A DNA stretch of 63,654 nt from an uncultured Anaerolineales bacterium. GTDB taxonomy: Bacteria > Chloroflexota > Anaerolineae > Anaerolineales > UBA11858. Positions 526 to 40,411 of this stretch are shown one piece after another (position 1 is the first letter of the stretch; every line of letters starts with the position of its first letter). Made by a program: the position numbers and the translations under genes. The DNA lies in the NCBI GenBank assembly GCA_964457375.1, contig CAYWFK010000007.1, positions 1 to 63,654 on the forward strand, in the 5' to 3' direction. The notes below the pieces were generated by a model. The model was given only the letters and a program-made list of their open reading frames with translations, was not told where the DNA came from and did not search any database.

Positions 526-1323
526 TCAGTGATGCTGGATGTAGATTGTACCTGCGGCAAGGATGATGAAGAACAAGGGAACGACAATCAGAGCCAGACG
601 GATATCCTCACGCGAACGTTGGTCGCTCAGGCGCAGTTCCGGCGGTATGCCTTCCAACCCCAGCAGGGGACCGGCAAGCCATGCAAATGAAACCCCGCCA
701 ATCAGCCCGCCGATATGTCCCCAGTTGTCGATGTGGGGAGATAGCCCGATGAGCAGGTTGATCACTGCCACGCTGATAATCGAAGTAAGGGCGCGCGAAG
801 CCTTGTTGCCGAGCATTTTGCGGTTGTGGTGGATGAATACGCCTTGTGCACCCAGCAAGCCAAAAATGGCTGTGGATGAGCCAAGCGAAGGGGCCGGTGA
901 GAACATCATCGAAAAGACATTTCCTCCAAAGCCGCTGAGAAAATACAGCGCCAAAAACCGGAAACGGCCATAGTATCGTTCCAGCCCGGGCCCGAACAAA
1001 TACAGGGCGTACATGTTGAAGGCGATGTGGAGCATCGAACCGTGAAGGAAGACGGGGGTAATCAGCCGCCAGTATTGACCGCGCATAATCAGGTCGTTGA
1101 TTTTTATGCCCAGAGCGGCGGGAAAGTCGATTTTGAAGAGGTATTCGGTGCCGATTTGAAGAAAATATATGGCAACTGTGATTGCCATGATGGTGTACGT
1201 GGCGTATGGTTTGTTGGTGATGGGGCGAACGATGACTTTTCTGGCGGGAGATGACGGATGGGACACCCCGCTTGATGCACCGGGCGGTTGTTCTCCGGGT
1301 GTTTCCGGTGTGTGCATGTTCAT
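526..1323 (-). CDS. Rhomboid family intramembrane serine protease
   Basis: WRLITPVFLH, HIAFN, GSS (catalytic Ser region) and HIGG motifs; multiple TM segments; 4-bp overlap with gmk. Confidence 0.9.
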   Translation of the reverse strand: MNMHTPETPGEQPPGASSGVSHPSSPARKVIVRPITNKPYATYTIMAITVAIYFLQIGTEYLFKIDFPAALGIKINDLIMRGQYWRLITPVFLHGSMLHIAFNMYALYLFGPGLERYYGRFRFLALYFLSGFGGNVFSMMFSPAPSLGSSTAIFGLLGAQGVFIHHNRKMLGNKASRALTSIISVAVINLLIGLSPHIDNWGHIGGLIGGVSFAWLAGPLLGLEGIPPELRLSDQRSREDIRLALIVVPLFFIILAAGTIYIQHH

Positions 1324-1949
1324 AGGGTAACCTTTCGCGGGTGGACACGATGGTGTTCGGCACGGATGATTGCCTGAATGGTATCTACGGTTTCGCCCAG
1401 ACGGTCTTCCCGGTTGAGGACAACGTAGTCGAAAATCGGCAGGCGTTTGAGTTCCTGGCGGGCGGTTGCAATGCGTAGTTTGAGGCTTTCCGGGTCTTCG
1501 GTGTTGCGTGCCCTCAGCCTGCGGGCGAGTTCTTCTTCATCGCTGGTTGTCAGGAAGATCAGCAGCGCATCAGGACAAATTGTGCGGATGGTTGCAGCCC
1601 CCTGAACATCGATGCGCAGGACCACATCTTTGCCGCTGGCGAGCGCTTTGCGGACTTGTTCTTTGGGGATTCCTTTGAAGTCTTTGTAGACGATAGCATA
1701 TTCGAGCAGTTCGTCTTTGTCGATCATCTCGGCGAACTGGTCTTTACTGATGAAGAAGTAATCTCTGCCGTCGATTTCGTCGGCACGGCGGGGGCGTGTG
1801 GTGGCGGTAACTACGAAGTGGATGGGGAGTTTTCTTTTCTTCATGGTGTGGATTACGGAATCTTTCCCCACACCGGAAGGACCCGAAATGATGATCAGCA
1901 ATGGTTCCTGATGCAGCGGGTTGAAGTTGTGGGTGTTTTCTTCGGTCAT
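1320..1949 (-). CDS. gmk: Guanylate kinase
   Basis: P-loop SGPSGVGKD, TTRPRRADEIDGRDYFF GMP-binding signature, IDVQGA. Confidence 0.95.
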   Translation of the reverse strand: MTEENTHNFNPLHQEPLLIIISGPSGVGKDSVIHTMKKRKLPIHFVVTATTRPRRADEIDGRDYFFISKDQFAEMIDKDELLEYAIVYKDFKGIPKEQVRKALASGKDVVLRIDVQGAATIRTICPDALLIFLTTSDEEELARRLRARNTEDPESLKLRIATARQELKRLPIFDYVVLNREDRLGETVDTIQAIIRAEHHRVHPRKVTL

Positions 1950-2022
1950 GAAATTTCCTTGCTATAATGATTTATAATTAATCCCGGCATCGAATGGTTT
2001 GATTTTGGAGGTTGTTTGAAAT

Positions 2023-2415
2023 ATGCCGGTTTATGAATACAAATGTTTGACCTGCAAGCAGGGTTTCGAAGTGAATATTCCTTATGCGAAATATGGCAGA
2101 GTGCAGGTAAGATGTTCTCATTGTAACAGTAAAAACGTTGTCCGTCTGATTAGCCGGGTGCGTGTTGCGCATTCCGAAGAAAGCAGGCTTGATTCGCTGG
2201 TTGACCCTTCTGCGCTGGACGGTCTGGAAGACGATCCGAAGACGCTGGGAAGGATGATGCGCACAATGTCCAAAGAGCTGGGGGAGGATATGGGACCCGA
2301 ATTCGATGAAGTGGTAGGCAGGCTGGAAAAAGGACAAAGCCCCGATGAAATCGAAAAAGCACTGCCCGATTTGGGGGGCGAAGGCGGTGATTCGGGCGCT
2401 TTGGACAATTTGTAA
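2023..2415 (+). CDS. FmdB-family zinc-ribbon protein
   Basis: MPVYEYKCLTC...RCSHC N-terminal CxxC-CxxC ribbon; GGAGG RBS. Confidence 0.8.
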   Translation: MPVYEYKCLTCKQGFEVNIPYAKYGRVQVRCSHCNSKNVVRLISRVRVAHSEESRLDSLVDPSALDGLEDDPKTLGRMMRTMSKELGEDMGPEFDEVVGRLEKGQSPDEIEKALPDLGGEGGDSGALDNL

Positions 2416-2423
2416 AACGGATT

Positions 2424-3047
2424 CTACCCCGATTGTTTGTCGATAAAAGCCAGCACAGCTTTGCGTATCCGCTTTTCGACTTGTTCGATGGGCAGCGTGC
2501 CGTCGATGACTACCCAGCGGGACGGATTCTGTTTGATGAGTTCCTTGTAGCCTTCACGGACGCGCCGATGGAAAGCCAGCTCGTAGGCTTCCATACGATT
2601 CCAGCCGCCATCTTTGTTCCTGCGTTTTAATCCCTCTTCTGCATCGATATCCAGCAGGATGGTCAATCCGGGGGTGAGCCCGCTTGTGGCAAAGTTGACG
2701 ATGGTATGTAATTGCTGCAAATCGATTCGGTGCCCGTAGCCTTGATAGGCGATGGTTGAATCTGCATAGCGGTCGCAAAGGACGATGGCACCGCTTTCGA
2801 TACTTGGCTTGATCAGCTCTTCGACATGTTGGGCACGGGATGCCTGAAAGAGCAGGATTTCGGTACGCGGGTGCATGCCGGTGTTTTTCATGCTGAAGAG
2901 CAAATGCCGGATTTGGTCGCCGATGGATGTGCCGCCGGGTTCCCGGGTCGAGACGATTTTATATCCCCGCTTTTGCAGGAATGCCGACAGTTTTTTGAGC
3001 TGGGTGGTTTTGCCGCTCCCGTCCGGTCCCTCGAATGTGATAAACAT
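2424..3047 (-). CDS. tmk: Thymidylate kinase
   Basis: FITFEGPDGSGKTTQ, TREPGG, CDRYADST motifs. Confidence 0.95.
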   Translation of the reverse strand: MFITFEGPDGSGKTTQLKKLSAFLQKRGYKIVSTREPGGTSIGDQIRHLLFSMKNTGMHPRTEILLFQASRAQHVEELIKPSIESGAIVLCDRYADSTIAYQGYGHRIDLQQLHTIVNFATSGLTPGLTILLDIDAEEGLKRRNKDGGWNRMEAYELAFHRRVREGYKELIKQNPSRWVVIDGTLPIEQVEKRIRKAVLAFIDKQSG

Positions 3048-3088
3048 GCGTGTGAATGCTGCCTTTCACCAGTAATAATTTTTCCGGT

Positions 3089-4684
3089 CTATTCCCTGAA
3101 AATCCGCACACGCCGATTGGGTTCTTTGCCATAAGAATGCGAGACCAGATTGGCTTCACGTGCCATCTGATGCTGCAAACGGCGGATGTACGAAGATGCC
3201 GGGGTAAGTTCGACCCAGCGATCGCCGTTTAGTACAGCTTCGATAGCTTGCCGGGTTTGATAAAGAATTTGCTCTTCGGAAGCGTTGGGAGATTGTTCCG
3301 TCGAAAGGTTGAAAAGCCCGCTCAGAAAGCGTTCCATCTGGTTGATTGTGTTCGAGCGCAGCACGTAAATCGGGGTGCCGCGGTTTTCGGCGCTGACGAT
3401 AGAACGGGTGTGTTTGCGGTAGTGGGTGCGCAGGGTGACGACAACCTGTGCGTCTTTGATTTCGTTGATTAGCAGAATGGGAACCCCCAGACGCTTTGCC
3501 GCCTGGTTCAGCCTGTTGCGTGCGACACCGTAAGGGAAAATGCGGACGATGTCTTCTTTTTTCCAGGTGCGGTAAGCGGGCTTGCCTGAGATTTCTTCTT
3601 GCGGGTGCTCCGGTTTTTCCCAGCTGCTGCCGTTGGTTTGCCTGTGCAAACCCAGCCCCCGCTGAGTGCTGCGGGGTTGGGGCAGGTGCTGCTTTTCGGT
3701 GCGTATCTCTCCGTTTTCATCACGAAAACGAATTTCAGGCTGGGGGTAGTTGCCGCGCAGCAGGGAATCGACCGCGGTGGCAACATCCGGGTGGACGGCA
3801 ACGCGGTCACGTGTCTGGATTTCGATGAGGACATCGAAGGTGGGCGGAGACCGGCGTTCGAGCACGGTTTTTTGGGTGCCGCGGCGGCGGGCTTCTTCAT
3901 CCGAAAGTGTTACGGATTCGATGCCGCCGACCAGGTCGGAAAGTGTCGGGTTGAGCAGGAGATTTTCAAGGGTGTTGCCATGGGCGGTGCCAATGAGCTG
4001 CACACCTCTTTCCGCGATGGTGCGCGCTGCTTCCGCTTCCAGCTCCCTGCCGATTTCGTCGATGACAATCACTTCCGGGTTGTGATTTTCCACTGCTTCG
4101 ATCATCACTTCGTGCTGCAAGGCGGGTTGTGAAACCTGCATACGCCGGGCACGTCCGACAGCCGGATGAGGTACGTCGCCGTCACCGCCGATTTCGTTGG
4201 ATGTATCGACGATGATCACGCGCTTTTTCTCGGCGAGGATGCGTGCCGCTTCGCGCAGCATGGTAGTTTTTCCGACGCCGGGGCGTCCGAGAATCAACAG
4301 GTTTTTTCCGCTTTCGATCAGGTCGGTAATGATATCCGTGGTGCCGTAAACCGCCCGCCCGACGCGGCAAGTCAGGCCGACGATCATCCCCCGGCGGTTG
4401 CGGATTGCGGAAATGCGGTGCAGGGTACGTTCCAGGCCGGCACGGTTGTCTTCGTCGAAGTTTCCTACTCTTTTTACAACGTAGTCGATATCTTCCCGGG
4501 TAATTTCCTTTTCGCTGAGGTTTTTCTCGCCGGAGAGGTATCGCGCGGTTGGCACGCGCCCCAAATCGAGAATTGCTTCGAGCAGGTTGTCGCTGTCATT
4601 CACCTCGGTGATTGCCGCAGCAATTTCCGGGGGTAAAACGCCCAGCAGCGTATCCAGATTGTCGGTAATTTGTTTTTTCGTCAA
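3089..4684 (-). CDS. SpoIIIAA/Ycf45-like AAA ATPase with C-terminal R3H domain
   Basis: Walker A GRPGVGKTT, VDTSNEIGGDGD, Walker B VIVIDEIG, C-terminal RRLQH R3H motif. Confidence 0.85.
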   Translation of the reverse strand: MTKKQITDNLDTLLGVLPPEIAAAITEVNDSDNLLEAILDLGRVPTARYLSGEKNLSEKEITREDIDYVVKRVGNFDEDNRAGLERTLHRISAIRNRRGMIVGLTCRVGRAVYGTTDIITDLIESGKNLLILGRPGVGKTTMLREAARILAEKKRVIIVDTSNEIGGDGDVPHPAVGRARRMQVSQPALQHEVMIEAVENHNPEVIVIDEIGRELEAEAARTIAERGVQLIGTAHGNTLENLLLNPTLSDLVGGIESVTLSDEEARRRGTQKTVLERRSPPTFDVLIEIQTRDRVAVHPDVATAVDSLLRGNYPQPEIRFRDENGEIRTEKQHLPQPRSTQRGLGLHRQTNGSSWEKPEHPQEEISGKPAYRTWKKEDIVRIFPYGVARNRLNQAAKRLGVPILLINEIKDAQVVVTLRTHYRKHTRSIVSAENRGTPIYVLRSNTINQMERFLSGLFNLSTEQSPNASEEQILYQTRQAIEAVLNGDRWVELTPASSYIRRLQHQMAREANLVSHSYGKEPNRRVRIFRE

Positions 4685-28388: not shown

Positions 28389-28922
28389 TCAAAACAGGCG
28401 GGGGTGTTGTTGTGCTGTTGCCTCAGGCGGAATATAGAGCGTATCGGCGGCCTGTTCGAGCGTTTCGAGAAGGCAGGTGCGCTCCGGCTGGGAAGTGCGG
28501 GGCGGGGATGCGCTGACGAGCACCGGGCCCCCGCGGCTCAGTCGCCGCAGGGAAACCAGGCATTCGTCCAGCAGGCGTTGGCATTCTTTCAGTTCCACGC
28601 TTTCATCGTAGAATGTGGCTAACAGATCGATCAGCACAATGGGAAAAGAAGTTGTCGAGGTTTCTTTCAGGAGTGTGTGCATCTGATAACAGGTAAATGC
28701 CCGCGCAACGTGGATTTGCTGAAGCACACGGCTGATGCCGGCTGTTTCGCGGCGGATATGCCGTGCTACGGCATAGGCGTTGAAAACATTTCCGCCATCC
28801 AGTACGTGCACCGCCCCCCTGCCACCAAGGCGGGCAATGGCTTTCAGGAGAGGAGCGTGCCCGTGCCTGGGGTAGATGGCCAGTGCCAAACCGTTTGCTG
28901 CGTGTGTTTCGAGTAGTTCCAT
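28389..28922 (-). CDS. Inactivated RadA/RecA-like protein (PolB2-associated; ImuA-like)
   Basis: LDGGNVFNAY, IHVARAFTCYQ and Walker-B-like IVLIDLLATFYD; Walker A absent. Confidence 0.75.
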   Translation of the reverse strand: MELLETHAANGLALAIYPRHGHAPLLKAIARLGGRGAVHVLDGGNVFNAYAVARHIRRETAGISRVLQQIHVARAFTCYQMHTLLKETSTTSFPIVLIDLLATFYDESVELKECQRLLDECLVSLRRLSRGGPVLVSASPPRTSQPERTCLLETLEQAADTLYIPPEATAQQHPRLF

Positions 28923-28957
28923 AGTTTTAGCTTAGCACGGTGCGATGCCGGAAACAA
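28923..28957 (-). promoter_or_regulatory. Putative promoter giving a leaderless mRNA for the RadA-like gene
   Basis: Minus-strand TTGTTT (28957-28952), 17 bp, TAAGCT (28934-28929), 6 nt, ATG; no Shine-Dalgarno. Confidence 0.45.
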
Positions 28958-28966
28958 TCCCTTGCA

Positions 28967-29008
28967 GGGGGTGTACGCGGGGGATATGGCGGGGTACCCC
29001 CGCGGGGG
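28967..29008. repeat. Phased G-run array G5-N7-G5-N7-G4-N9-G5 with overlapping palindromes
   Basis: G runs at 28967-71, 28979-83, 28991-94, 29004-08; palindromes GGGGTACCCC (28991-29000) and CCCCCGCGGGGG (28997-29008). Confidence 0.7.
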
Positions 29009-29024
29009 ACAAGTGCTTGCGGGT

Positions 29025-29444
29025 TCAGATGGATGTGTCAAGCCATTCGTGAAAGTCCCAGTCTGCCAGTGCCTGGCGCAAGGCTATTTTGCTGTGTGTA
29101 TTCGTCTTGCTGAGAATGTTGCGGACATGGCTTTTGACTGTTTCGGGTGCGATGATCAGCCTGCGGGCAATTTCGCGGTTGGTGTAATTGAGGCAGATAA
29201 GTGCGGCAACTTGTTTTTCGCGTGGTGAAAGTTCCTGCCAGCGTTCAAGGTTGGCTTCGGCTTCCTGCCGCCGTGTGGCGGCAATGCGCAGTAATTCGGA
29301 AGCGACTTTCTCGACGGCATGTCGTTCTTCGGCGGCGAGGCTTTCCAGAATCTCCCGGGTTTCCCGGTCGAGGCTTATGCTGATTTGCCGCCCGGGCGGA
29401 CGGCGGATGGTGTTTTGCAGACGCTGCCAGATAGATGTGTTCAT
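29025..29444 (-). CDS. LuxR/NarL-type HTH regulator with N-terminal ribbon-helix-helix-like segment, no receiver domain
   Basis: C-terminal LSPREKQVAALIC..YTNREIA.RL.IAPETVKSHVRNILSK; N-terminal QISISLDRETREILESLAAEE. Confidence 0.85.
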   Translation of the reverse strand: MNTSIWQRLQNTIRRPPGRQISISLDRETREILESLAAEERHAVEKVASELLRIAATRRQEAEANLERWQELSPREKQVAALICLNYTNREIARRLIIAPETVKSHVRNILSKTNTHSKIALRQALADWDFHEWLDTSI

Positions 29445-29527
29445 CGTTCGTATCCTGTGTTTTCGATTTGTTTGCGGGTGATGGTTTGCCGTGTGTTTCC
29501 CGGAAAAGGCGAACCGCTTTTTGTTCT

Positions 29528-29557
29528 ATTATATTAGAACATCTGTTCTGGTGTCAA
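29528..29557 (-). promoter_or_regulatory. Consensus sigma70 promoter containing a LexA (SOS/Cheo-type) box
   Basis: Minus-strand TTGACA (29557-29552), 18 bp, TATAAT (29533-29528); spacer holds the perfect palindrome AGAAC-ATCT-GTTCT (29536-29549). Confidence 0.85.
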
Positions 29558-30870: not shown

Positions 30871-32517
30871 ATGATGTCAATTGACAAAGAAAGATTATTG
30901 GCTACGCTAAAACGTATCGACAGGGGGAAAATCAGGGAAGAAGATGTATTCTTCCTGAATGATGCCTGTCGTGAAATGATGGAAATTATCGACGTTCAGG
31001 GGAAAATGCAGGGGAGCAGCTTCTGGGCTGACCGGGCAATCAGCCTGGTGAAGGCTTTGGTGGAAATCTCTTCTTTGCAGCAGGGAGAAGCGATTGCCAG
31101 GGCTGCTGTGGAGAGTATTACCCGTTATTGGGGAATGGACTCCGGGGCATTGATTGTTTGGGATGCCGACATGGACAAACCGGTCAACCGGGTGACTTGC
31201 GGGGACGTCGACTGGGAAGGGCTTCTTTCACCTTATTTGGAGATGAAGACGGAAAATATGCCGCTGGCGGCGTTGTTCGACAGGGACTATACCCAGCTGC
31301 CCTGGGTGTTCAATGGCTTCGATGATGAAGGCCTGACCGATGCGGAAAAGGACTTCATTCGCAAGAATGGAATCAAAACGTTGGTGACGATTCCGATAAT
31401 GGCGGATGGCATGGTGATTGGTTTGATTTTGACCGCAGATGTCAGCAAGGAGCATGCGCTGACCGAGCAGCAATTGGCATTGGGAGGTTTGTTTGCCAAT
31501 CAGGCGGGTATCCTGATTGAGAGGACACGGCTTTACAAGGCGACGCAGAAACGCGCTGCTGAATTGCAGGCATTGCATCAAATCAGTTTGAGTCTCACTG
31601 CCAGCCTCGATTTGCAAAAGGTGCTGCAAGCCATTCTCGAAAGCACCTTGCGAATGCTTGTGGATGCCGAAGATGCTCATATTTTCCTGTTCGACGGCAG
31701 AAAACTGAGTTTTGGGGCTGTTTTGTGGCTGGATGGTAACAAGGAAAAAGTCTGGTCTCAACCCCGCGAAAACGGCTTGACGAATACGGTTGCGCAGAGA
31801 GGAAACTTGATTTATATTCCGGATATGCAGCGTCATGAATTATTCAAGGGGATGCCGTCCAACTGGAAAGGATCGATTATCGGTATGCCATTGAAAATCG
31901 GACATCGGGTTGTGGGGGTGATGACGGTCGCGCATCCGGAAACGAATGCATTTACGGCGGATGAAATCCGGATTTTACGTTTGATTGGCGATCAAGCGGC
32001 GATTGCTATCGAAAACGCCCGTTTGCATGATTTAGCCAATCGTCAGGCTCATACGGATATGTTGACGAATTTGCCGAACCGCCGGGCTTTGATCGAACGC
32101 CTGGAAGATGAAATCAGACGTTCGAAACGATACGAGCATTATTTTACGATTGTCATGATGGATCTGGACCGTTTCAAGCGCGTCAACGATACTTTCGGAC
32201 ACCCGACCGGTGATGCGGTGCTCAAAAATATTGCGGAAAGCATGAGTGATGTGATTCGCGAAACCGATTTTCTGGCGCGATATGGCGGCGATGAATTTAC
32301 CCTTTTGTTGCCTGAAACGGATTTTGCAACGGCAAAGGCCTTAAGTGATCGCTTGAAAGAGGTCATTGCCGGTTATTGTGACAAGAACCGGCTGATTGGG
32401 TCTATTAAACTTGGCTTGTCAGTCGGTATTGCAACTTTTCCGGAACATGGGAAAACAGTGCGGGATTTATTGGCGAGTGCAGATTCGAAAATGTATCGAG
32501 ACAAAACGTTAGGTTGA
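30871..32517 (+). CDS. GAF-GAF-GGDEF diguanylate cyclase
   Basis: Two GAF domains, DMLTNLPNRR, DLDRFKRVND, I-site RETD and intact RYGGDEF. Confidence 0.92.
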   Translation: MMSIDKERLLATLKRIDRGKIREEDVFFLNDACREMMEIIDVQGKMQGSSFWADRAISLVKALVEISSLQQGEAIARAAVESITRYWGMDSGALIVWDADMDKPVNRVTCGDVDWEGLLSPYLEMKTENMPLAALFDRDYTQLPWVFNGFDDEGLTDAEKDFIRKNGIKTLVTIPIMADGMVIGLILTADVSKEHALTEQQLALGGLFANQAGILIERTRLYKATQKRAAELQALHQISLSLTASLDLQKVLQAILESTLRMLVDAEDAHIFLFDGRKLSFGAVLWLDGNKEKVWSQPRENGLTNTVAQRGNLIYIPDMQRHELFKGMPSNWKGSIIGMPLKIGHRVVGVMTVAHPETNAFTADEIRILRLIGDQAAIAIENARLHDLANRQAHTDMLTNLPNRRALIERLEDEIRRSKRYEHYFTIVMMDLDRFKRVNDTFGHPTGDAVLKNIAESMSDVIRETDFLARYGGDEFTLLLPETDFATAKALSDRLKEVIAGYCDKNRLIGSIKLGLSVGIATFPEHGKTVRDLLASADSKMYRDKTLG

Positions 32518-32523
32518 TGAATA

Positions 32524-33672
32524 GTGGTGAGTGACAAGTTGAAAATTCCAGGTGTTCAGGCTGCTGTTGATGTGTGGAAGAATATTCAGGAAGTCGATTT
32601 GCGTCCCGTCCGTGAGGAGGCGGAACGCAATGTGCGCATCGCTATTGTCGGAAAGGCGGGAACGGGGAAACAGGCACTTGCGGCACAGATGCGCTATGAT
32701 CCTGCACTTCCGGAGCAGCGTACCCATACCCCCGTTTGGTTGCTGGAACCGGTGGATGCAGGTGATGACCTCGACGCAGACCTGATTATCTTGCTGGTTG
32801 ATTTATTTGATCAAAAGTACGCGCGTGAAGCGGAACTGCTGCGGCAATGGCAGCAACTTGGGAAGCAGGTGCTGACGATTTTTGTCTTGTCGGCAGATGA
32901 GAATATTGATATGGCGGAAGAAAAACTGGCCAAACTGACCTCCGGCAATGTGTTGGCAGGCTGCATTGGAAACCCCGAGTTTATCAAACAACATTTCGTC
33001 CCGTCTGTAATCAGCCTGCTTGCGGAAGATTTGCTCTCACTTGGCAGGCAATTTCCTCTCTTTCGCTTGCCGATTGCCCGCAAACTAATCAATGACGTTT
33101 CTTTTTCCAATGCCATGTATGCTTTCAGCACGGGAATCGGTGAAATCGTTCCTGTGCTGGATATTCCGCTGAATGTGGCGGATGTTGTCGTGCTGACAAA
33201 AGCGCAGGCATTTTTGGTGTATAAACTTGGGCTGCTGTTCGGGTATTCCGTTCATTGGCGGGATTATCTTGCGGAGTTCAGCGGTATTTTGGGCGGTGGT
33301 TTTCTGTGGCGGCAGATTGCGCGTCAATTGATTGGCTTGATTCCCGTTTGGGGAATTGTTCCGAAGACGGCAGTGGCATATGCAGGCACTTATGCGGTGG
33401 GGGAGGCTGTTCTGGCGTGGTACATAACCGGGCGACAGGTAACGAAAGAGCAGCTGCGCCGGCTGTACCGAAAGGCATTTGCATCGGGAAAAAACCTGGC
33501 GAAATCACTGGCTTCCAAAGCCGCCCCTTCACGCCTGAAACTCTTCAAACGGAAAACGAAAAATGCACTGTCTGCCGGCGGGAAAACAAACAACAAACCG
33601 TGCCCGGCTTGCGGGAAAAACAATCAGCCGGATGCGCGGTTCTGCCAGTATTGCGGGAGGGTGCTCGAGTGA
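32524..33672 (+). CDS. Degenerate P-loop GTPase-like + DUF697/YcjF-like domain + C-terminal zinc ribbon
   Basis: IAIVGKAGTGKQ, IVPVLDIPLNVADVVVLTKAQ, CPACGKNN...FCQYCG. Confidence 0.65.
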   Translation: MVSDKLKIPGVQAAVDVWKNIQEVDLRPVREEAERNVRIAIVGKAGTGKQALAAQMRYDPALPEQRTHTPVWLLEPVDAGDDLDADLIILLVDLFDQKYAREAELLRQWQQLGKQVLTIFVLSADENIDMAEEKLAKLTSGNVLAGCIGNPEFIKQHFVPSVISLLAEDLLSLGRQFPLFRLPIARKLINDVSFSNAMYAFSTGIGEIVPVLDIPLNVADVVVLTKAQAFLVYKLGLLFGYSVHWRDYLAEFSGILGGGFLWRQIARQLIGLIPVWGIVPKTAVAYAGTYAVGEAVLAWYITGRQVTKEQLRRLYRKAFASGKNLAKSLASKAAPSRLKLFKRKTKNALSAGGKTNNKPCPACGKNNQPDARFCQYCGRVLE

Positions 33673-36600
33673 ATTGGCAAATCACCCGCCCGAAGGTCAT
33701 CGTTCCCCGGCGAAGGTCCAATATCCTTTCACGCAGAAGGCTGCTGGCTGCTTTCGAAGATATTCTGGATTACAAGCTGATTTTGCTGATTTCTCCCCCC
33801 GGTTATGGAAAAACGACATTACTCGTCGATATGGCGCACCAGTCTGAGCTGCCGGTTTGCTGGTATTCGCTTGATCCGCTGGATGAAGAGCCTCAGCGTT
33901 TTCTCAGCCATTTCATCGCATCGATTGCCCAGCGTTTTCCTGAATTCGGTGAACGCTCTATGGCGCTTGTTCAGGATGATTTTCAGATCGAGGCAAACCT
34001 TGTTCAGATTGTCAATGCGATTGTAAACGATGCTTACGATCATATCCATGAGCATTTCATCATGGTGCTGGATGATTTTCATACTGTCGAAAATAACCGG
34101 ACGGTGATCGACTTCATCAATCGTTTCATCCAGCAGGTCGATGAAAATTTCCACCTTGTGATTTCTTCGCGCACCCTGCTTTCACTGCCGGATTTACCCC
34201 TGATGGTCAGCCGGTCTCAGGTTTGGGGGTTGAGCTTCGAAGAACTTGCTTTTCGTCCCGATGAAATTCAGGCGCTGGTTTCGCAAAACTACAGGCTTTC
34301 ACTTACCCGTGCCGAGGCGAACGCGCTGGAGCAGCGTACCGAGGGATGGATTACGGGGCTGATTCTTTCTGCTGAAACGGATTGGGTAAACAGGGACGGG
34401 CAGGTTTTGTTTAGCCGTATCTCCGGGGTGAATTTGTATGAGTACTGGGCGCAGCAGGTGCTCGAACGACAACCCCCCGAAGTCAGGGATGCTTTGCTGC
34501 GCACCTCCTTGCTGGATGAGTTCAACGGGCAAATTTGCGGCGAGGTGATCGGGAAACCGCCGAAAGGGTTTACCTGGGAAAAAATAACCGCTGTGCTGAT
34601 GAAGAATAACCTCTTCGTTCAGACAATTGATGATCAAAGTACGTGGCTCAGGTATCATCGTTTGTTCCGCGATTTTCTGCGTGCCAAAATGGCTGAGTTG
34701 TATCCGAAAGAAAGAGCGGCGATTCTTTGGCGTTTGGCACAGTATTTTGTAAAAAAGGATGAATGGGAACAAGCGTATGCGATTTACCTGCGTTTGGAGG
34801 ATTATGATGCGGCTGCGCAATTAATCGCCAGCGCGGGGCGTTCGTTGCTGGGCAGCGGGCGGCTTTCGGCTTTGGCAGACTGGATCGATCGTTTGCCCAG
34901 GCAGACGCGGGATTCCTACCCGGTGCTGTTGTCGCTGCGTGGGTATGTGGCTGCCATGTTTGGCGATGGCGACGAAGGGCTGGCGCTGCTCAATCAGGCT
35001 GCGGAGCGTTTTCAGGCACTGAATGACAAAGAGCGTCTGGCTGGTGTGCTTTCGTGGCGCGCTGCCGTGCATCGGATGATGGGGTATTACCAAACCTCGA
35101 TTGCGGATTCGAAAAAGATCATTGCTTTGGCTGCGGAAATCGAAAATCCTGATATGTATGTTGCCGAGGCATACAGGAATTATGGACTGAGCCTTTATCG
35201 CCTGGGGGAAATCAGGAATAGTGTCGAATATGTGGAGAAAGCGCTGGATACTTACCTGAGAATTGGAGAAGATGATCTCGCTGCTCAGACGAGTGCAGAT
35301 TTGGGGATAATTTTCAGAAACCTTCAGGTATATGAAAGAGCGGAAAAAGCTTATACCCGGGCGCTTGACCATTGGCGGGAAACAGGAAATTATGTTCAAC
35401 AAGTGTCAATCTTGAATAATCTGGGTGTGCTGGTGCAGTCTCAGGGAGATTACAGGCGGGCTCATGAATTGTTCGAAGAAGCCATGGGCAAAGCACACGG
35501 GATCGGTTATTTGCGGGCTGAATCTTTTGCCTTGACGAGTCTTGCTGATTTGTATCTTGAGCTGGAAGCCTACCAGGCAGCCCGAGATGCTTATGCCAAC
35601 GCTGAGGCTCTTGTGGACCAAACCGAAGACCGCTATTTGATGCTTTATATCCTCTCGAAGAGGGTGTTCCTGGCAAATCAGGGCTTCGACGCGGAAGAAG
35701 ACCCTCGCGTCCTGTTGGGAACGATGGCAGGTATCATCGGACGTGACAGCTCGGATTATGAATGTGGTATGCTGGCATTGACTGCCGGCACCCTGGCTGT
35801 CGAATGCGAAGCGTTTTCAGAAGCGGAGCAGCAGTTTGTGCAGGCGGTCGAGTGTCTTTCAAAGGGTGGAAAACCTCTTGAATGTGCACATGCCGGTTTT
35901 TCGCTGGCGAATCTTTGCTTTCTGCGCTCGGAACAGGATAAAGCACTGGAGCATTTGCAGAAAGCGTTCCAGTGGCTTGAAGTCAGCGGGTTTGATTGTT
36001 CCATGGCTGTACTGGGCCGGGAATTCAAGGACTTGTTTGTTGCCTTCAAGGAAATGCCTGCGGTCAGTCGGAAGATTGTCCCGCTTCTTTCGAGAATCGA
36101 AGCATTCGAGAAGCAATTACCCGGCATTCGAAAAGAAATTCGCCGTATGGTGGCATCGAATGCTTTTGCGCCTCCCAGGCTTGAAATCCGGGCGTTTGGC
36201 ACTGCCCGGGTAGAAATCGACGGAAAACCGGTAACAGGCTCGGACTGGATGCAGCAGCGCATTGTACGAAGCTTGTTTTTTTATCTGCTTGCCCATCCGT
36301 CGTATGGGGTTTCGAAAGATGTGATTGGGACGGTGTTTTGGCCTGAAAGCAGCAGCACCCGGCTGAAAAGGCAATTCAAGAATGCGATTTATCGGCTGCG
36401 GCAGGCTTTGGGCAAGAATGTCGTGTTGTTCGATGGTGACGTGTATTGGTTCAACCGCGAGCTGGATTATGAGTATGATGTGGAAATATTCCGCGAAAAG
36501 CTGGAAACCGCCGAAAAAATGGAGGATCCTGAAATCCGCCTGAATGCTTATCAAGAGGCTATCGAGTTGTATCGTGGTGATTATTTGCAGGATATCGGTG

Positions 36601-36905
36601 ACGGGTGGGCTATTCTGGAACGGGAGTTGCTGCGCAGGGCTTATCAGGATGCCTTGTTACATGCGGCAGAGATACGCTTTGAGCGCGGTGAGTATGAAAA
36701 GGCACTGGATTTGTGCGAGAAAGCACTTCATACGGATAACTGCATGGAACCGGCTTATCGCCTTGAAATGCAAGTTTATGATGCGCTGGGAAACCGCTCG
36801 GGGGTTGTGAGAGTTTACAAGCGTTGTGTGAATACACTCGAAAAAGAACTGGGGGTTGTCCCTTCGCCGCAAACGGAAAAGCTTTATTTGTACCTGACGC
36901 ACTGA
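33669..36905 (+). CDS. MalT-like (STAND) ATPase-TPR-BTAD transcriptional activator
   Basis: Start reassigned to GTG 33669 (overlaps upstream TGA). RPKVIVP...SPPGYGKTT Walker A, MVLDDFH Walker B, central TPR repeats, C-terminal SARP-like wHTH (LEIRAFG) and BTAD (AIELYRGDYL..W...ERE.LR). Confidence 0.88.
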   Translation: MNWQITRPKVIVPRRRSNILSRRRLLAAFEDILDYKLILLISPPGYGKTTLLVDMAHQSELPVCWYSLDPLDEEPQRFLSHFIASIAQRFPEFGERSMALVQDDFQIEANLVQIVNAIVNDAYDHIHEHFIMVLDDFHTVENNRTVIDFINRFIQQVDENFHLVISSRTLLSLPDLPLMVSRSQVWGLSFEELAFRPDEIQALVSQNYRLSLTRAEANALEQRTEGWITGLILSAETDWVNRDGQVLFSRISGVNLYEYWAQQVLERQPPEVRDALLRTSLLDEFNGQICGEVIGKPPKGFTWEKITAVLMKNNLFVQTIDDQSTWLRYHRLFRDFLRAKMAELYPKERAAILWRLAQYFVKKDEWEQAYAIYLRLEDYDAAAQLIASAGRSLLGSGRLSALADWIDRLPRQTRDSYPVLLSLRGYVAAMFGDGDEGLALLNQAAERFQALNDKERLAGVLSWRAAVHRMMGYYQTSIADSKKIIALAAEIENPDMYVAEAYRNYGLSLYRLGEIRNSVEYVEKALDTYLRIGEDDLAAQTSADLGIIFRNLQVYERAEKAYTRALDHWRETGNYVQQVSILNNLGVLVQSQGDYRRAHELFEEAMGKAHGIGYLRAESFALTSLADLYLELEAYQAARDAYANAEALVDQTEDRYLMLYILSKRVFLANQGFDAEEDPRVLLGTMAGIIGRDSSDYECGMLALTAGTLAVECEAFSEAEQQFVQAVECLSKGGKPLECAHAGFSLANLCFLRSEQDKALEHLQKAFQWLEVSGFDCSMAVLGREFKDLFVAFKEMPAVSRKIVPLLSRIEAFEKQLPGIRKEIRRMVASNAFAPPRLEIRAFGTARVEIDGKPVTGSDWMQQRIVRSLFFYLLAHPSYGVSKDVIGTVFWPESSSTRLKRQFKNAIYRLRQALGKNVVLFDGDVYWFNRELDYEYDVEIFREKLETAEKMEDPEIRLNAYQEAIELYRGDYLQDIGDGWAILERELLRRAYQDALLHAAEIRFERGEYEKALDLCEKALHTDNCMEPAYRLEMQVYDALGNRSGVVRVYKRCVNTLEKELGVVPSPQTEKLYLYLTH

Positions 36906-38101: not shown

Positions 38102-38448
38102 ATGCAAACTTTGCAACCGCGACGACTTATCGCGATGTTGCTACCCGCAAGCCATTTTCTGTTTCCACGCTTACGGAAAAGCGCACGGTGATCAACGACA
38201 GAGAAATCGGACGTTTGATTGCTGCTGCTGTGATCAATAAAAGATTTTGTGATTTGCTGCTTTCTGATCCATCTCAGGCAATCACTCAGGGGTTTCAGGG
38301 GGAGTCGTTTCACATTGCGGGCAAAGATCGCGAACTGATTCTCTCGATAAAAGCCAAGACACTTTCCGATTTCGCACAACAACTTGCAAACTACCAACAC
38401 ACTGGAAAAAGGAATGATTACCATCGTACCGACCGCGGACGGTTTTAA
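38098..38448 (+). CDS. Small protein resembling NHLP/Os1348-clan leader-like proteins
   Basis: ATG 38098 overlaps upstream TGA; IGRLIAAAVINKRFCDLLLSDPSQAI resembles the NHLP 'I..A..D..F...LL.DP..AL' motif. Confidence 0.6.
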   Translation: MNANFATATTYRDVATRKPFSVSTLTEKRTVINDREIGRLIAAAVINKRFCDLLLSDPSQAITQGFQGESFHIAGKDRELILSIKAKTLSDFAQQLANYQHTGKRNDYHRTDRGRF

Positions 38449-40411
38449 CGAAGCAGATGTAAATCGCAGCCTGTTCTTGCTGGATGAAAATAACCCGCTG
38501 CCTCCCAAGTCTTTCTTGCAGTTTTCCAACACGGAAGAAACGATTATCTGGCTGCTCGACAAAGAGGGTGTATTTACCTTTTCCGAGGGGGACGGGCTGG
38601 CACTTTTGGACTTGAAATCCGGCGGACTGGTGGGAAAATCGATTTTCGATATTTTTGCAAACTATCCCGATATTACAAAATGCATCCGCCAGACCATGAA
38701 GGGAAAATCCTGCCAGTCTATCGATGAAATCAATGGCAAACTGTGGAAGATGTGGGCTTATCCGGTGCGGGATAAAGGAAACAACCTGACCGGAATTAGC
38801 GGAGTGTTTGTCAATATCACCGAGCAATATCAGCGTGAACGGATACAAAAGATCGTTTTGAGTCTTTCGAACACGCTGCGGAATGTGGAAACTTCCGGGG
38901 ATATTCCCGCGGTTATCCTTGACCGGATCATGAGCATTGTCTCGGCAGATGCGGCAATGTTGTTCTGGCGCAAGGGGGTTGCAGGGGTGATGCGGGTCGA
39001 GCTTGGACGCGGCGCCTGGGAATCGTGGAGCGGGAAAACTTTCGATGAAAAAAACGAAACTTTGCGCAGCAAAGAAGCCCGGCGTGTTTTTCGGAGCGGC
39101 AAACCGTACCTTGGTAGTACGCCTGCCTTTTTGGCGGAAAATACGACGGGGCAGCATAGCCCGCTGCATGTGTATGGGGTGCCTCTGGTTTCCATGAATA
39201 ACGTTGCCGGTGCAATTTGGGTGGGCAGAGAAAAACCGTTTTTTGACTATGAGACAATGCTGCTCAAAGCCATTGGGGAAATTGCCGCAAATTCGATACG
39301 TAGTGCCACGCAGCACACTACGACGCAGCGCAGGTTACAGCGCCTTGTCGCTTTGCACAATATCGACAAGGCAATCAGCAACAGCCTGGAATTGCACGTT
39401 ACATTGAATGTGCTTCTCGAGCAGGTCGTTACCCAGCTGGGGATTCATGCCGCCATGGTTTATCTGGTGAAGCCGTATACCCAGACGATGGAATACGCTG
39501 CGGGAAGAGGCATTCAGATGATTGACCTTGTCCAGACGGAATTGCCGCTGGGCGAAGGGCTGGCGGGGCAGGTTGCTGTCAACCGGAAGTTTTTGTATAT
39601 TCAGGATTTGCACAGTGTCAGTGATGCCGGGCGACTGGTGAGAAAAAGTTTCTTCGAAAAGGAAGGCATCGTTTCTTATTGTGGTATTCCTTTGCTGGTA
39701 AAAGGGCAGGTGAAGGGCGTTTTGGAAATTTATTCCCGCCAGGTACTCAATCCCGAAGCGGAATGGGTTGATTTTCTGGAAACACTGGCTACCCAGGCAG
39801 CGATTGCCATCGACAATGCGGAATTGTTCCAGAACCTGCAAAAGACGAACGCGGAGCTTTCGGTTGCTTATGATGCCACCCTGGAAGGCTGGGTTCATGC
39901 CCTGGATTTGCGTGATAAAGAAACCGAGGGGCATACGAAACGGGTGACGGAAGTTACTTTGCGTTTGGCGCGGGCACTGGGCATCGGGGAAGCTGATTTG
40001 ATGCACACGCGCCGGGGAGCATTGCTGCATGATATTGGAAAAATGGCTATCCCCGATGCGATTTTGTATAAACCGGGTCCCTTGAACGAGCATGAATGGG
40101 AAATCATGCGTAAACACCCGGTATATGCATACCAGCTGCTTTCTCCCATCCGGTTTCTGAGACAAGCGCTGGCTATTCCATACTATCACCATGAGAAATG
40201 GGACGGGAGCGGTTATCCCTTTGGGTTGAGCGGGGAGCGCATCCCTCGGATTGCCCGTATTTTCGCCGTGGCTGACGTATGGGATGCCCTGCGCTCAGAC
40301 AGGCCTTATCGAAAAGCCTGGCAGGATAGTGATGCCAAGGATTACTTACGGGAAAATGCGGGGAAGCATTTCGACCCCGATGTTGTTCATATGTTCTTTC
40401 GGATTTTTTAG
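38414..40411 (+). CDS. PAS-GAF-GAF-HD-GYP c-di-GMP phosphodiesterase
   Basis: RDKETEGHTKRV, LHDIGK, HHEKWDGSGYP, ADVWDALRSDRPYR; start 38414 (or TTG 38384). Confidence 0.92.
   Translation: MITIVPTADGFNEADVNRSLFLLDENNPLPPKSFLQFSNTEETIIWLLDKEGVFTFSEGDGLALLDLKSGGLVGKSIFDIFANYPDITKCIRQTMKGKSCQSIDEINGKLWKMWAYPVRDKGNNLTGISGVFVNITEQYQRERIQKIVLSLSNTLRNVETSGDIPAVILDRIMSIVSADAAMLFWRKGVAGVMRVELGRGAWESWSGKTFDEKNETLRSKEARRVFRSGKPYLGSTPAFLAENTTGQHSPLHVYGVPLVSMNNVAGAIWVGREKPFFDYETMLLKAIGEIAANSIRSATQHTTTQRRLQRLVALHNIDKAISNSLELHVTLNVLLEQVVTQLGIHAAMVYLVKPYTQTMEYAAGRGIQMIDLVQTELPLGEGLAGQVAVNRKFLYIQDLHSVSDAGRLVRKSFFEKEGIVSYCGIPLLVKGQVKGVLEIYSRQVLNPEAEWVDFLETLATQAAIAIDNAELFQNLQKTNAELSVAYDATLEGWVHALDLRDKETEGHTKRVTEVTLRLARALGIGEADLMHTRRGALLHDIGKMAIPDAILYKPGPLNEHEWEIMRKHPVYAYQLLSPIRFLRQALAIPYYHHEKWDGSGYPFGLSGERIPRIARIFAVADVWDALRSDRPYRKAWQDSDAKDYLRENAGKHFDPDVVHMFFRIF

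What the first reader, a model, noticed from the sequence alone, without database searches (positions are those of the whole stretch)
29528..29557. Perfect LexA box inside a consensus promoter heading the PolB2 region
Seen: TTGACA-18-TATAAT on the minus strand with AGAAC-ATCT-GTTCT between the hexamers, about 85 bp upstream of the LuxR-like gene. Known: GAAC-N4-GTTC is the LexA site of Firmicutes and Actinobacteria, and AGAAC-N4-GTTCT was shown for the Chloroflexi member Dehalococcoides. Inference: this places the regulator, and probably the PolB2 cassette, in the SOS regulon.
Basis: partly seen in the sequence, partly recalled or inferred. Interest (0 to 1): 0.8.

Follow-up and report, generated by a model that had tools for sequence, protein, structure and literature searches.

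The report
SOS operator on PolB2 mutasome promoter
A perfect LexA-type (SOS) repressor site sits inside the promoter heading an error-prone PolB2 polymerase gene cluster of an Anaerolineae bacterium, and the same design recurs in dozens of relatives and in their recA promoters, so the cluster is very probably switched on by DNA damage.

Summary
It lies 83 nt upstream of a 139-aa LuxR/GerE-type gene, followed by iRadA, PPB2 and PolB2, the published bacterial PolB2 mutasome operon. In the window alone the promoter and 14-mer are each improbable (expected 0.01 and 0.04).

The decisive evidence is comparative. Of 80 related Anaerolineae loci, 67 carry (T)AGAAC-N4-GTTCT(A) in the promoter of the first cassette gene (about 2 expected by chance). 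That includes 40 of 40 cassettes with the LuxR-like gene and 25 without it. Anaerolineales recA promoters have the same operator-between-hexamers design (TTGACA-N2-3-AGAAC-N4-GTGCT-AAACT), twice in a genome that also carries a boxed cassette.

So the box is a conserved SOS-type operator. LexA is the inferred binder, but no lexA lay in any sequence I could reach.

New detail: between the LuxR-like gene and iRadA lies a second conserved promoter-like block. It never co-occurs with a LexA box placed directly before iRadA. This suggests a two-tier cascade, LexA to NarL-like regulator to mutasome.

Verdict: real and supported; a new member of a known kind.

The parts
29552..29557 (-). -35 hexamer TTGACA
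   Evidence: TTGAC is conserved 2-3 nt upstream of the box in 35 of 67 related promoters.
29536..29549 (-). LexA-type (SOS) operator AGAAC-AGAT-GTTCT, a perfect palindrome filling the promoter spacer
   Evidence: for the window. Conserved as TAGAACAwATGTTCTA in 67 of 80 related loci and as AGAAC-N4-GTGCT in Anaerolineales recA promoters.
29528..29533 (-). -10 hexamer TATAAT
   Evidence: A TAnnnT element abuts or overlaps the box in 58 of 67 related promoters.
29523..29527 (-). Extra AGAAC half-site right after the -10, about at the transcription start, 22 nt from the first half-site. Significance unknown.
   Evidence: Several relatives have a second box or half-site just downstream, for example L057, L072, L074, L013.
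29025..29444 (-). Stand-alone NarL/LuxR (GerE) type HTH regulator, 139 aa, no receiver domain. It is the first gene behind the operator.
   Evidence: Pfam GerE. A tight family of 88 proteins of about 135 aa. AF2 model pLDDT 84.9. Fold matches NarL, FixJ and VraR DNA-binding domains. Best PDB sequence match is NarL, E 5.5e-8.
28920..29016 (-). Second conserved upstream block ('type B') directly before iRadA: palindrome GGGGTACCCC (29000-28991), CCCCCTGCAAGGG (28971-28959), -35-like TTGTTT (28957-28952), extended -10 TGCTAAGCT (28937-28929), then 6 nt and the ATG (28922)
   Evidence: The nhmmer profile hits this block once per locus in 42 related loci of the first 80 (L003-L082), always ending at the iRadA start. 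No consensus RNA structure.
28389..28922 (-). iRadA, an inactive RadA/Rad51 homologue of 177 aa
   Evidence: Weak Rad51 Pfam hit. No GxxxxGKT Walker A motif in the sequence. 640 homologues, mostly Anaerolineae. Matches the operon definition in PMC11791011.
28050..28313 (-). PPB2, a small helical subunit of 87 aa (DUF8156)
   Evidence: PF26485 on the identical protein in L001 and L002. Its position between iRadA and PolB2 is as in PMC11791011.
25725..28040 (-). PolB2, a family-B translesion polymerase of 771 aa, with YVD in place of the DxD catalytic motif
   Evidence: PF00136 E 1.9e-28. Motif HMYVDGMWI matches the HLYVDGIWV listed for Anaerolineae PolB2 in the paper's supplement.

Best explanation
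The palindrome AGAAC-AGAT-GTTCT is the SOS operator of a strong sigma-70-type promoter.

Inferred mechanism: in undamaged cells a LexA dimer occupies the whole 18-nt spacer and touches both hexamers, so RNA polymerase cannot bind. After DNA damage, RecA-stimulated LexA self-cleavage frees the promoter.

Shown: the promoter, the box, their conservation, and the same module at recA.

The first product is a stand-alone NarL/LuxR-type DNA-binding protein. The iRadA-PPB2-PolB2 translesion 'mutasome' genes follow on the same strand. No convincing terminator lies between them, so read-through probably expresses them (inferred).

They also carry a second, cassette-specific promoter-like block with a weak -35, an extended -10, a leaderless start and C/G-rich palindromes. 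I infer, with less confidence, that this block is the target of the LuxR-like protein. That would give a LexA to regulator to mutasome feed-forward cascade.

In relatives lacking the regulator gene, the same LexA-type operator sits directly on the iRadA promoter. By either route the mutasome ends up under SOS control.
For: 1. Exact module, improbable by chance.
2. Phylogenetic footprint across 80 Anaerolineae loci with iRadA only 39-59% identical. 67 loci carry the box (core at most 1 mismatch) within 280 nt upstream of the first cassette gene, against 0.023 expected per region. The consensus is cTTGACaa-TAGAACAwATGTTCTA-TAtaAT.
3. Of 73 strong boxes in 1.36 Mb, 57 are at these promoters and 3 more are the window's own box and its two identical metagenome copies (L001, L002). 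Most of the rest are at recA.
4. The box is present in 40 of 40 cassettes with the LuxR-like gene and in 25 cassettes without it, where it lies directly before iRadA. The binder is therefore a trans-acting factor, not specific to that gene.
5. recA promoters share the design. It is seen in 9 of 12 closest metagenomic recA loci. Of the other three, L087 has no upstream sequence, L092 has a perfect box heading the operon, and L091 has none. It is also seen in named Anaerolineales MAGs. The same genome holds a boxed recA and a boxed cassette in L038 and on contig JBJYXV010000089.1 (L171 and L065).
6. The motif equals the known LexA box of Firmicutes and Actinobacteria (PMC3323433, PMC4234289). 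Its preferred inner bases AwAT resemble the B. subtilis consensus (own knowledge).
7. Function fits. PolB2 operons are damage-induced in archaea, and lexA is enriched next to bacterial polB2 (PMC11791011).
8. A stand-alone copy of the LuxR-like gene with no cassette nearby still has a perfect box in its promoter (L163).
9. For the cascade: the type-B block occurs in 32 of 40 LuxR-containing loci and in 10 LuxR-less loci, and in none of the 25 loci with a LexA box directly before iRadA.
Against: - No lexA gene was found in the window or in the roughly 1.3 Mb of related loci searched with LexA queries. LexA presence, its own box, and binding are all untested.
- The recA boxes carry a conserved departure, GTGC instead of GTTC. 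In Dehalococcoides, LexA reportedly does not bind recA (own recollection).
- 13 of 80 cassettes have no box.
- The window's spacer is 18 nt, slightly longer than optimal.
- The cascade step is only correlative. The type-B block could be a LuxR-independent promoter.
- LuxR-less type-B loci have no regulator gene within 6 kb.
Confidence: 0.8

Rival explanations
1. The palindrome is the autoregulatory operator of the cassette's own LuxR/NarL-type protein, not of LexA.
For: It lies in the promoter of a gene for a dimer-forming HTH protein, and autoregulation is common. 40 of 40 copies of this gene have the box, including a stand-alone copy (L163). No lexA could be examined.
Against: 25 cassettes without the gene carry the same box directly before iRadA. 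recA promoters carry it too. The motif is the textbook LexA box. NarL-type domains usually read TACYYMT-like heptamers (own knowledge), which resemble the type-B block rather than the box.
Confidence: 0.07
2. The box is bound by another, non-LexA damage-responsive repressor that happens to recognise GAAC-N4-GTTC.
For: lexA was not seen in any accessible sequence. Some lineages have replaced LexA by other regulators (own knowledge).
Against: Motif, palindromic geometry, placement and regulon content (recA, a translesion polymerase) are exactly those of LexA in the neighbouring phyla and, from memory, in Dehalococcoides of the same phylum. No such alternative regulator is known for this motif.
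Confidence: 0.08
3. A chance palindrome inside a strong constitutive promoter, with no operator function.
For: The core GAAC-N4-GTTC is expected about once per window.
Against: The 14-mer is expected 0.04 times. The box is conserved in position and sequence in 67 of 80 diverged loci while flanking bases vary.
Confidence: 0.01

Closest known systems
Bacterial PolB2 mutasome operon iRadA-PPB2-PolB2 (Timinskas, Timinskas and Venclovas 2025, PMC11791011)
   Same: Same three genes in the only order seen in bacteria. PolB2 has YVD in place of DxD, iRadA lacks a Walker A motif, and the Anaerolineae are a major host group.
   Different: That work inferred damage control from lexA genes lying next to polB2 in other phyla, for example Myxococcota and Abyssubacteria. 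It did not analyse promoters or LexA boxes. GerE neighbours are only counted in its Table S1 (131 cases) and not discussed. Here lexA is not adjacent. A LexA-type operator and a GerE-type gene take its place.
LexA-regulated imuA-imuB-dnaE2 mutagenesis cassette (mentioned in PMC3323433; details from own knowledge)
   Same: A multi-gene translesion cassette that includes an inactive RecA-like protein, sits behind a LexA box, and is part of the conserved SOS core.
   Different: The polymerase is C-family there and B-family here, and the accessory proteins differ. The canonical imu cassette has no dedicated NarL-type regulator as first gene. Some Pseudomonas cassettes start with a second lexA (own knowledge), which is the nearest analogue of a cassette-borne regulator.
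Cheo box, the LexA (DinR) operator of Bacillus subtilis and Gram-positive bacteria: GAAC-N4-GTTC
   Same: Identical core, palindromic geometry and A/T-rich inner tetranucleotide. It overlaps core promoter elements.
   Different: Flanking bases are A/T (TAGAAC...GTTCTA) rather than C/G (CGAAC...GTTCG). The recA operators of this lineage use a fixed GTGC right half.
E. coli polB (Pol II) and umuDC (Pol V) as SOS genes
   Same: Damage-inducible translesion polymerases repressed by LexA. Pol V likewise works as a multi-subunit complex with a RecA-family partner.
   Different: Different LexA motif (CTGT-N8-ACAG). Pol II is a single subunit with proofreading. No intermediate transcription factor is involved.
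Archaeal PolB2 (Dpo2) operons
   Same: Homologous proteins, induced by DNA damage.
   Different: Control there is via Orc1/Cdc6-type factors (PMC11791011). Here there is a bacterial sigma-70 promoter with a LexA-type operator.

Membership tests
LexA (SOS) operator of the GAAC-N4-GTTC type | Palindrome GAAC-N4-GTTC | tested here: met
   Perfect AGAAC-AGAT-GTTCT at 29536-29549.
LexA (SOS) operator of the GAAC-N4-GTTC type | Overlaps the core promoter so that binding excludes RNA polymerase | tested here: met
   It fills the spacer of a 12/12 consensus promoter. The same placement is seen in relatives.
LexA (SOS) operator of the GAAC-N4-GTTC type | Conserved upstream of orthologous operons | tested here: met
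   67 of 80 loci, against 0.023 expected per region.
LexA (SOS) operator of the GAAC-N4-GTTC type | Same motif at core SOS genes (recA) in the same lineage | tested here: met
   AGAAC-N4-GTGCT lies between -35 and -10 of Anaerolineales recA. The one-base variant is conserved. In two genomes both recA and the cassette carry a box.
LexA (SOS) operator of the GAAC-N4-GTTC type | lexA present in the genome and autoregulated by the same box | not testable with these tools
   No LexA-like ORF in the window or in the 162 loci held at that point (tblastn). No LexA/S24 Pfam domain is listed for the recA loci fetched later.
LexA (SOS) operator of the GAAC-N4-GTTC type | LexA binding in vitro and induction by DNA damage | not testable with these tools
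   Needs experiments.
Bacterial PolB2 mutasome operon | Gene order iRadA-PPB2-PolB2 on one strand | tested here: met
   28922-28389, 28313-28050 and 28040-25725, all on the minus strand.
Bacterial PolB2 mutasome operon | PolB2 is a family-B polymerase with the first Asp of DxD replaced | tested here: met
   PF00136. HMYVDGMWI, compared with the YVD listed for Anaerolineae.
Bacterial PolB2 mutasome operon | iRadA is a Rad51/RadA homologue with an inactivated ATPase site | tested here: met
   Rad51 Pfam hit E 6e-4, below the curated cutoff. No Walker A motif in the sequence. Invariant residues are shared with 23 homologues.
Bacterial PolB2 mutasome operon | PPB2 is a small helical protein (DUF8156) | tested here: met
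   PF26485 on the identical protein. It was not recovered by my own Pfam scan at E 0.01.
Bacterial PolB2 mutasome operon | Inactivated 3'-5' exonuclease domain and a heteropentameric complex | not tested
   Exonuclease motifs and complex modelling were not examined.
NarL/FixJ (LuxR, GerE) HTH regulators | C-terminal four-helix GerE-type DNA-binding domain | tested here: met
   GerE E 3.3e-14. NarL DNA-binding domain at rmsd 0.6 A over 58 residues. NarL E 5.5e-8.
NarL/FixJ response regulators | N-terminal receiver domain | tested here: not met
   The protein has 139 aa and no Response_reg hit. The N-terminus is about 70 residues of helices. It is a stand-alone effector like GerE, not a two-component response regulator.

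The most novel reading that the evidence does not exclude
In many Anaerolineae the SOS signal may reach the PolB2 mutasome through a dedicated intermediate. LexA would repress a small stand-alone NarL-like regulator, which always carries the LexA box even when encoded away from the cassette. This regulator would then activate a cassette-specific, leaderless 'type-B' promoter: C/G-rich palindromes around -72 and -43, a weak -35, and an extended -10. The result would be a two-tier, delay-generating cascade gating a mutagenic polymerase. Lineages without the regulator wire LexA directly to iRadA, and a few show hybrid promoters.
Probability: 0.4. Interest if true: 0.65.

Novelty: new member of a known kind. 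Interest (0 to 1): 0.5.

Why it matters
It gives concrete cis-regulatory evidence that the horizontally acquired archaeal-type PolB2 mutasome has been wired into the bacterial SOS network of Anaerolineae, a large and poorly studied class. Previously this link was inferred only from lexA genes lying nearby in other phyla.

It also defines the SOS box of this class (TAGAACAwATGTTCTA, with a GTGC variant at recA). That box can be used to predict the rest of the regulon.

It also points to testable systems. Leptolinea tardivitalis is cultured and has the box directly before iRadA. B. subtilis LexA should recognise the site.

The possible LexA to NarL-like regulator to mutasome cascade would be a new way of delaying error-prone synthesis.

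Tried and rejected
No LexA was found anywhere. One recA turned up in L038, which opened the recA test.
- The window's contig could not be extended or its genome identified. Only two 6.7-kb metagenome contigs carry the identical cassette.
- The Dehalococcoides LexA paper is not in the library. Literature searches found no report of LexA boxes at bacterial PolB2 operons or of an Anaerolineae LexA motif.
- Tested whether the 5'UTR or the LuxR-iRadA spacer is an RNA element or terminator. Fold z-scores were +0.8 and -1.05, there was no alifold consensus, and no Rfam hit.
- Checked the few strong boxes lying elsewhere. Most are inside coding regions or before unrelated genes and were not pursued.
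- Considered that the palindromic box serves the divergent SDR gene. Its promoter-like site is more than 110 nt away and the SDR is not conserved next to the cassette.
- Pfam annotation of most of the larger ORFs across the window found ordinary chromosomal genes and no further SOS genes.

Full report
**1. The observation.**
The minus strand reads ccTTGACAccAGAACAGATGTTCTaaTATAATagaac.
- The -35 is at 29557-29552, the palindrome AGAAC-AGAT-GTTCT at 29549-29536, and the -10 at 29533-29528. The spacer is 18 nt and the hexamers match 12/12.
- The core GAAC-N4-GTTC is expected about once in the window, so the core alone proves nothing.
- The full 14-mer is expected 0.04 times. A perfect consensus promoter is expected 0.01 times. 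Placing the box inside the spacer adds a factor of about 1e-4.
- No second box exists in the window, even allowing one mismatch.

**2. What lies behind it.**
Four minus-strand genes follow.
- A 139-aa GerE/LuxR-type HTH protein, 29444-29025.
- A 177-aa Rad51-like protein without a Walker A motif, 28922-28389.
- An 87-aa protein, 28313-28050. It is DUF8156 on the identical protein in two metagenome contigs.
- A 771-aa family-B polymerase, 28040-25725, with YVD in place of DxD.

The last three are the iRadA-PPB2-PolB2 'PolB2 mutasome' operon described computationally by Timinskas et al. 2025 (PMC11791011).
- That paper reports that bacterial polB2 neighbourhoods are enriched in lexA.
- It contains no promoter analysis: the word 'promoter' occurs zero times.
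- It lists GerE neighbours (131) only in a supplementary table.
- In the rows I could read, the lexA neighbours are in other phyla.

The rest of the window is ordinary chromosome with no lexA or recA. It includes ClpB, kinases, ABC transporters, c-di-GMP enzymes, a P-type ATPase and tRNA-Ser.

**3. Phylogenetic footprint.**
An alignment of iRadA homologues retrieved 80 loci from species-representative genomes. One is titled Candidatus Methanofastidiosum; the other 79 carry Anaerolineae, Chloroflexota or Chloroflexia-type titles. iRadA identity to the window is 39-59%.
- Exact GAAC-N4-GTTC occurs 54 times in 852 kb, and most of these lie just upstream of the cassette.
- A box scoring at least 9/12 against TAGAAC-N4-GTTCTA, with at most one core mismatch, lies within 280 nt upstream of the first cassette gene in 67 of 80 loci. 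The background rate predicts 0.023 per region.
- It is present in 40 of 40 loci that have the LuxR-like gene. It is also directly before iRadA in 25 loci that lack that gene.
- The consensus is cTTGACaa-TAGAACAwATGTTCTA-TAtaAT. The operator fills the spacer, exactly as in the window.
- In all 1.36 Mb held at that point there are 73 strong boxes. Of these, 57 are at cassette promoters and 3 more are the window's own box and its two identical metagenome copies (L001, L002). Most of the rest are at recA.
- Further metagenomic copies (L164, L166-168) show the same module.

**4. Is it the SOS box?**
One locus, L038, holds recA 5 kb from the cassette. Its promoter is TTGACAcacAGAACATCTGTGCTAAACT.
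- Using that RecA, I examined the 12 closest metagenomic recA loci (69-85% identity). Nine have cTTGAC-N3-4-nGAAC-N4-GTGCTA running into the -10.
- Of the other three, L087 has no upstream sequence, and L092 has a perfect TAGAACACTAGTTCTA heading the operon that ends in recA. L091 has no box in its 195 nt of upstream sequence.
- RecA proteins named Anaerolineales or Chloroflexota (82-99% identical) confirm the taxonomy.
- Three distinct recA promoter sequences, from the seven loci fetched with them, have TTGACA-N2-3-AGAAC-N4-GTGCT-AAACT.
- One of these, L171, is on contig JBJYXV010000089.1, which also carries the boxed cassette of L065.

The motif equals the LexA box of Firmicutes and Actinobacteria (PMC3323433, PMC4234289). 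From memory, it also equals that of the Chloroflexi member Dehalococcoides. That paper was not available, and I recall that LexA there did not bind recA.

I therefore assign the box to LexA with about 0.8 confidence. The missing piece is lexA itself. No LexA-like ORF exists in the window or in the 162 loci held at that point, and whole genomes could not be fetched.

**5. Mechanism.**
A LexA dimer on a 14-16-bp operator that spans the spacer and abuts both hexamers would block RNA polymerase by steric exclusion. Damage-induced LexA cleavage would release a near-consensus, hence strong, promoter. This step is inferred from the established behaviour of LexA operators.

The perfect palindromes at the mutasome contrast with the fixed one-base departure at recA. 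This would fit tighter and later release of the mutagenic polymerase, as in E. coli umuDC. That comparison is inference only.

**6. The first gene and a second control layer.**
The 139-aa protein belongs to a tight family of about 135-aa proteins (88 hits). Shared features are an N-terminal MSLWQRLL motif, a helical middle part, a GerE HTH, and an invariant C-terminal LADWDFSAW motif.
- The AF2 model (pLDDT 84.9) matches NarL, FixJ and VraR DNA-binding domains. NarL aligns at rmsd 0.6 A over 58 residues.
- NarL is also the best PDB sequence match. The recognition helices are ETVKSHVRNIL here and STVKVHVKHML in NarL.
- There is no receiver domain.

The 102-nt spacer between this gene and iRadA is not neutral. 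It holds a position-fixed block:
- the palindrome GGGTTAACCC or GGGGTACCCC near -76;
- CCCC-N4-6-GGGG-ATTGT near -49;
- an extended -10, tGCTAnnnT, 6-7 nt before the ATG, implying a leaderless start.

A profile of this block hits exactly once per locus, always ending at the iRadA start.
- It hits 32 of 40 LuxR-containing loci.
- It hits 10 LuxR-less loci, including 8 of the 13 that lack a LexA box.
- It hits none of the 25 loci with a LexA box directly before iRadA.

It shows no conserved RNA structure.

A stand-alone copy of the regulator gene, with a terminator after it and no cassette nearby, still has a perfect box in its promoter (L163). A few loci (L021, L022, L036, L043, L051) combine type-B-like upstream sequence with a LexA-like box in the spacer.

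The simplest reading is a cascade, LexA to NarL-like regulator to type-B promoter. In the window, read-through from the upstream promoter would add to it. This is correlative only, and I put it at about 0.4.

**7. Rivals.**
- Autoregulation by the LuxR-like protein is disfavoured, because the box occurs in cassettes without that gene and at recA.
- An unknown non-LexA repressor cannot be excluded without lexA.
- Chance is excluded by the conservation.

**8. Novelty and score.**
A LexA box before a translesion polymerase operon is what a specialist would expect, and SOS control of bacterial PolB2 was already suspected.
- What is new is the direct cis-regulatory evidence, the definition of the Anaerolineae SOS box and its recA variant, and the link with a dedicated NarL-like regulator and a second conserved promoter.
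- I rate it a new member of a known kind, with interest 0.5.
- The cascade, if true, would be a new variant worth about 0.65.

Noticed in passing
window 28920-29016 (minus strand); same block in 42 related loci: A conserved roughly 100-nt block lies directly before the iRadA ATG. It holds the palindrome GGGGTACCCC or GGGTTAACCC, CCCC-N4-6-GGGG-ATTGT, and an extended -10 followed 6-7 nt later by the ATG (a leaderless start). It is mutually exclusive with a LexA box directly before iRadA.
   Followed up: partly
L083-L096, L038, L169-L175 (recA promoters): Anaerolineales recA operators always carry GTGC (once GTAC) instead of GTTC in the right half-site. The box runs into a TAAACT or TATAAT -10. 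This is a lineage-wide weaker variant of the box compared with the perfect palindromes at the mutasome.
   Followed up: partly
L092:1014-1029 and 1044-2075: A perfect TAGAACACTAGTTCTA lies 30 nt before a 343-aa P-loop protein. By eye this looks like an FtsK/SpoIIIE-type ATPase; no family scan was run. It heads a same-strand run ending in recA. That recA has no box of its own.
   Followed up: partly
L163:3942-3957, gene 4001-4408: A stand-alone copy of the 135-aa LuxR-like gene has a perfect box in its promoter and a canonical terminator after it. No PolB2 cassette lies downstream. This hints that the regulator can act in trans.
   Followed up: partly
L011, L015, L016, L019, L021, L049, L064 and others: In many relatives the -10 is followed after about 6 nt by the ATG of the first cassette gene, so these SOS transcripts appear leaderless. 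The window instead has a 5'UTR of about 77 nt.
   Followed up: no
window 29523-29527 and 29511-29514 (minus strand): A third AGAAC half-site lies immediately after the -10, and a GTTC lies 8 nt further on (GAAC-N8-GTTC). Some relatives have a second full box at this position (L057, L072, L074).
   Followed up: no
L164:5336-8393 and 630-3169: In this metagenome contig the gene called after PPB2 has only 306 aa and no listed Pfam family. A group II intron-type reverse transcriptase/maturase ORF follows it, which may have interrupted the polymerase gene. A divergent cluster DUF5946 / 87 aa / 183 aa / Y-family polymerase (IMS) lies next to the cassette.
   Followed up: no
L040 (LNGC01000057.1): A contig binned as the archaeon Candidatus Methanofastidiosum carries an Anaerolineae-type LuxR-iRadA cassette. 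It has a bacterial promoter and a LexA-like box (TAGAACATAAATTCTA). The contig is probably mis-binned.
   Followed up: no
window 30871-32517, 38384-40411, 33255-36905: A GAF-GGDEF diguanylate cyclase and a GAF plus HD-type protein (possible c-di-GMP phosphodiesterase) flank a 1216-aa NTPase-TPR-BTAD protein. The listed start of that protein overlaps the preceding ORF by about 400 nt.
   Followed up: no
iRadA C-terminus, window 28389-28412: The window's iRadA ends in QQHPRLF. The published Anaerolineae iRadA proteins end in beta-clamp motifs such as QLVLW or QMELW. Whether this variant still binds the clamp is unclear.
   Followed up: no
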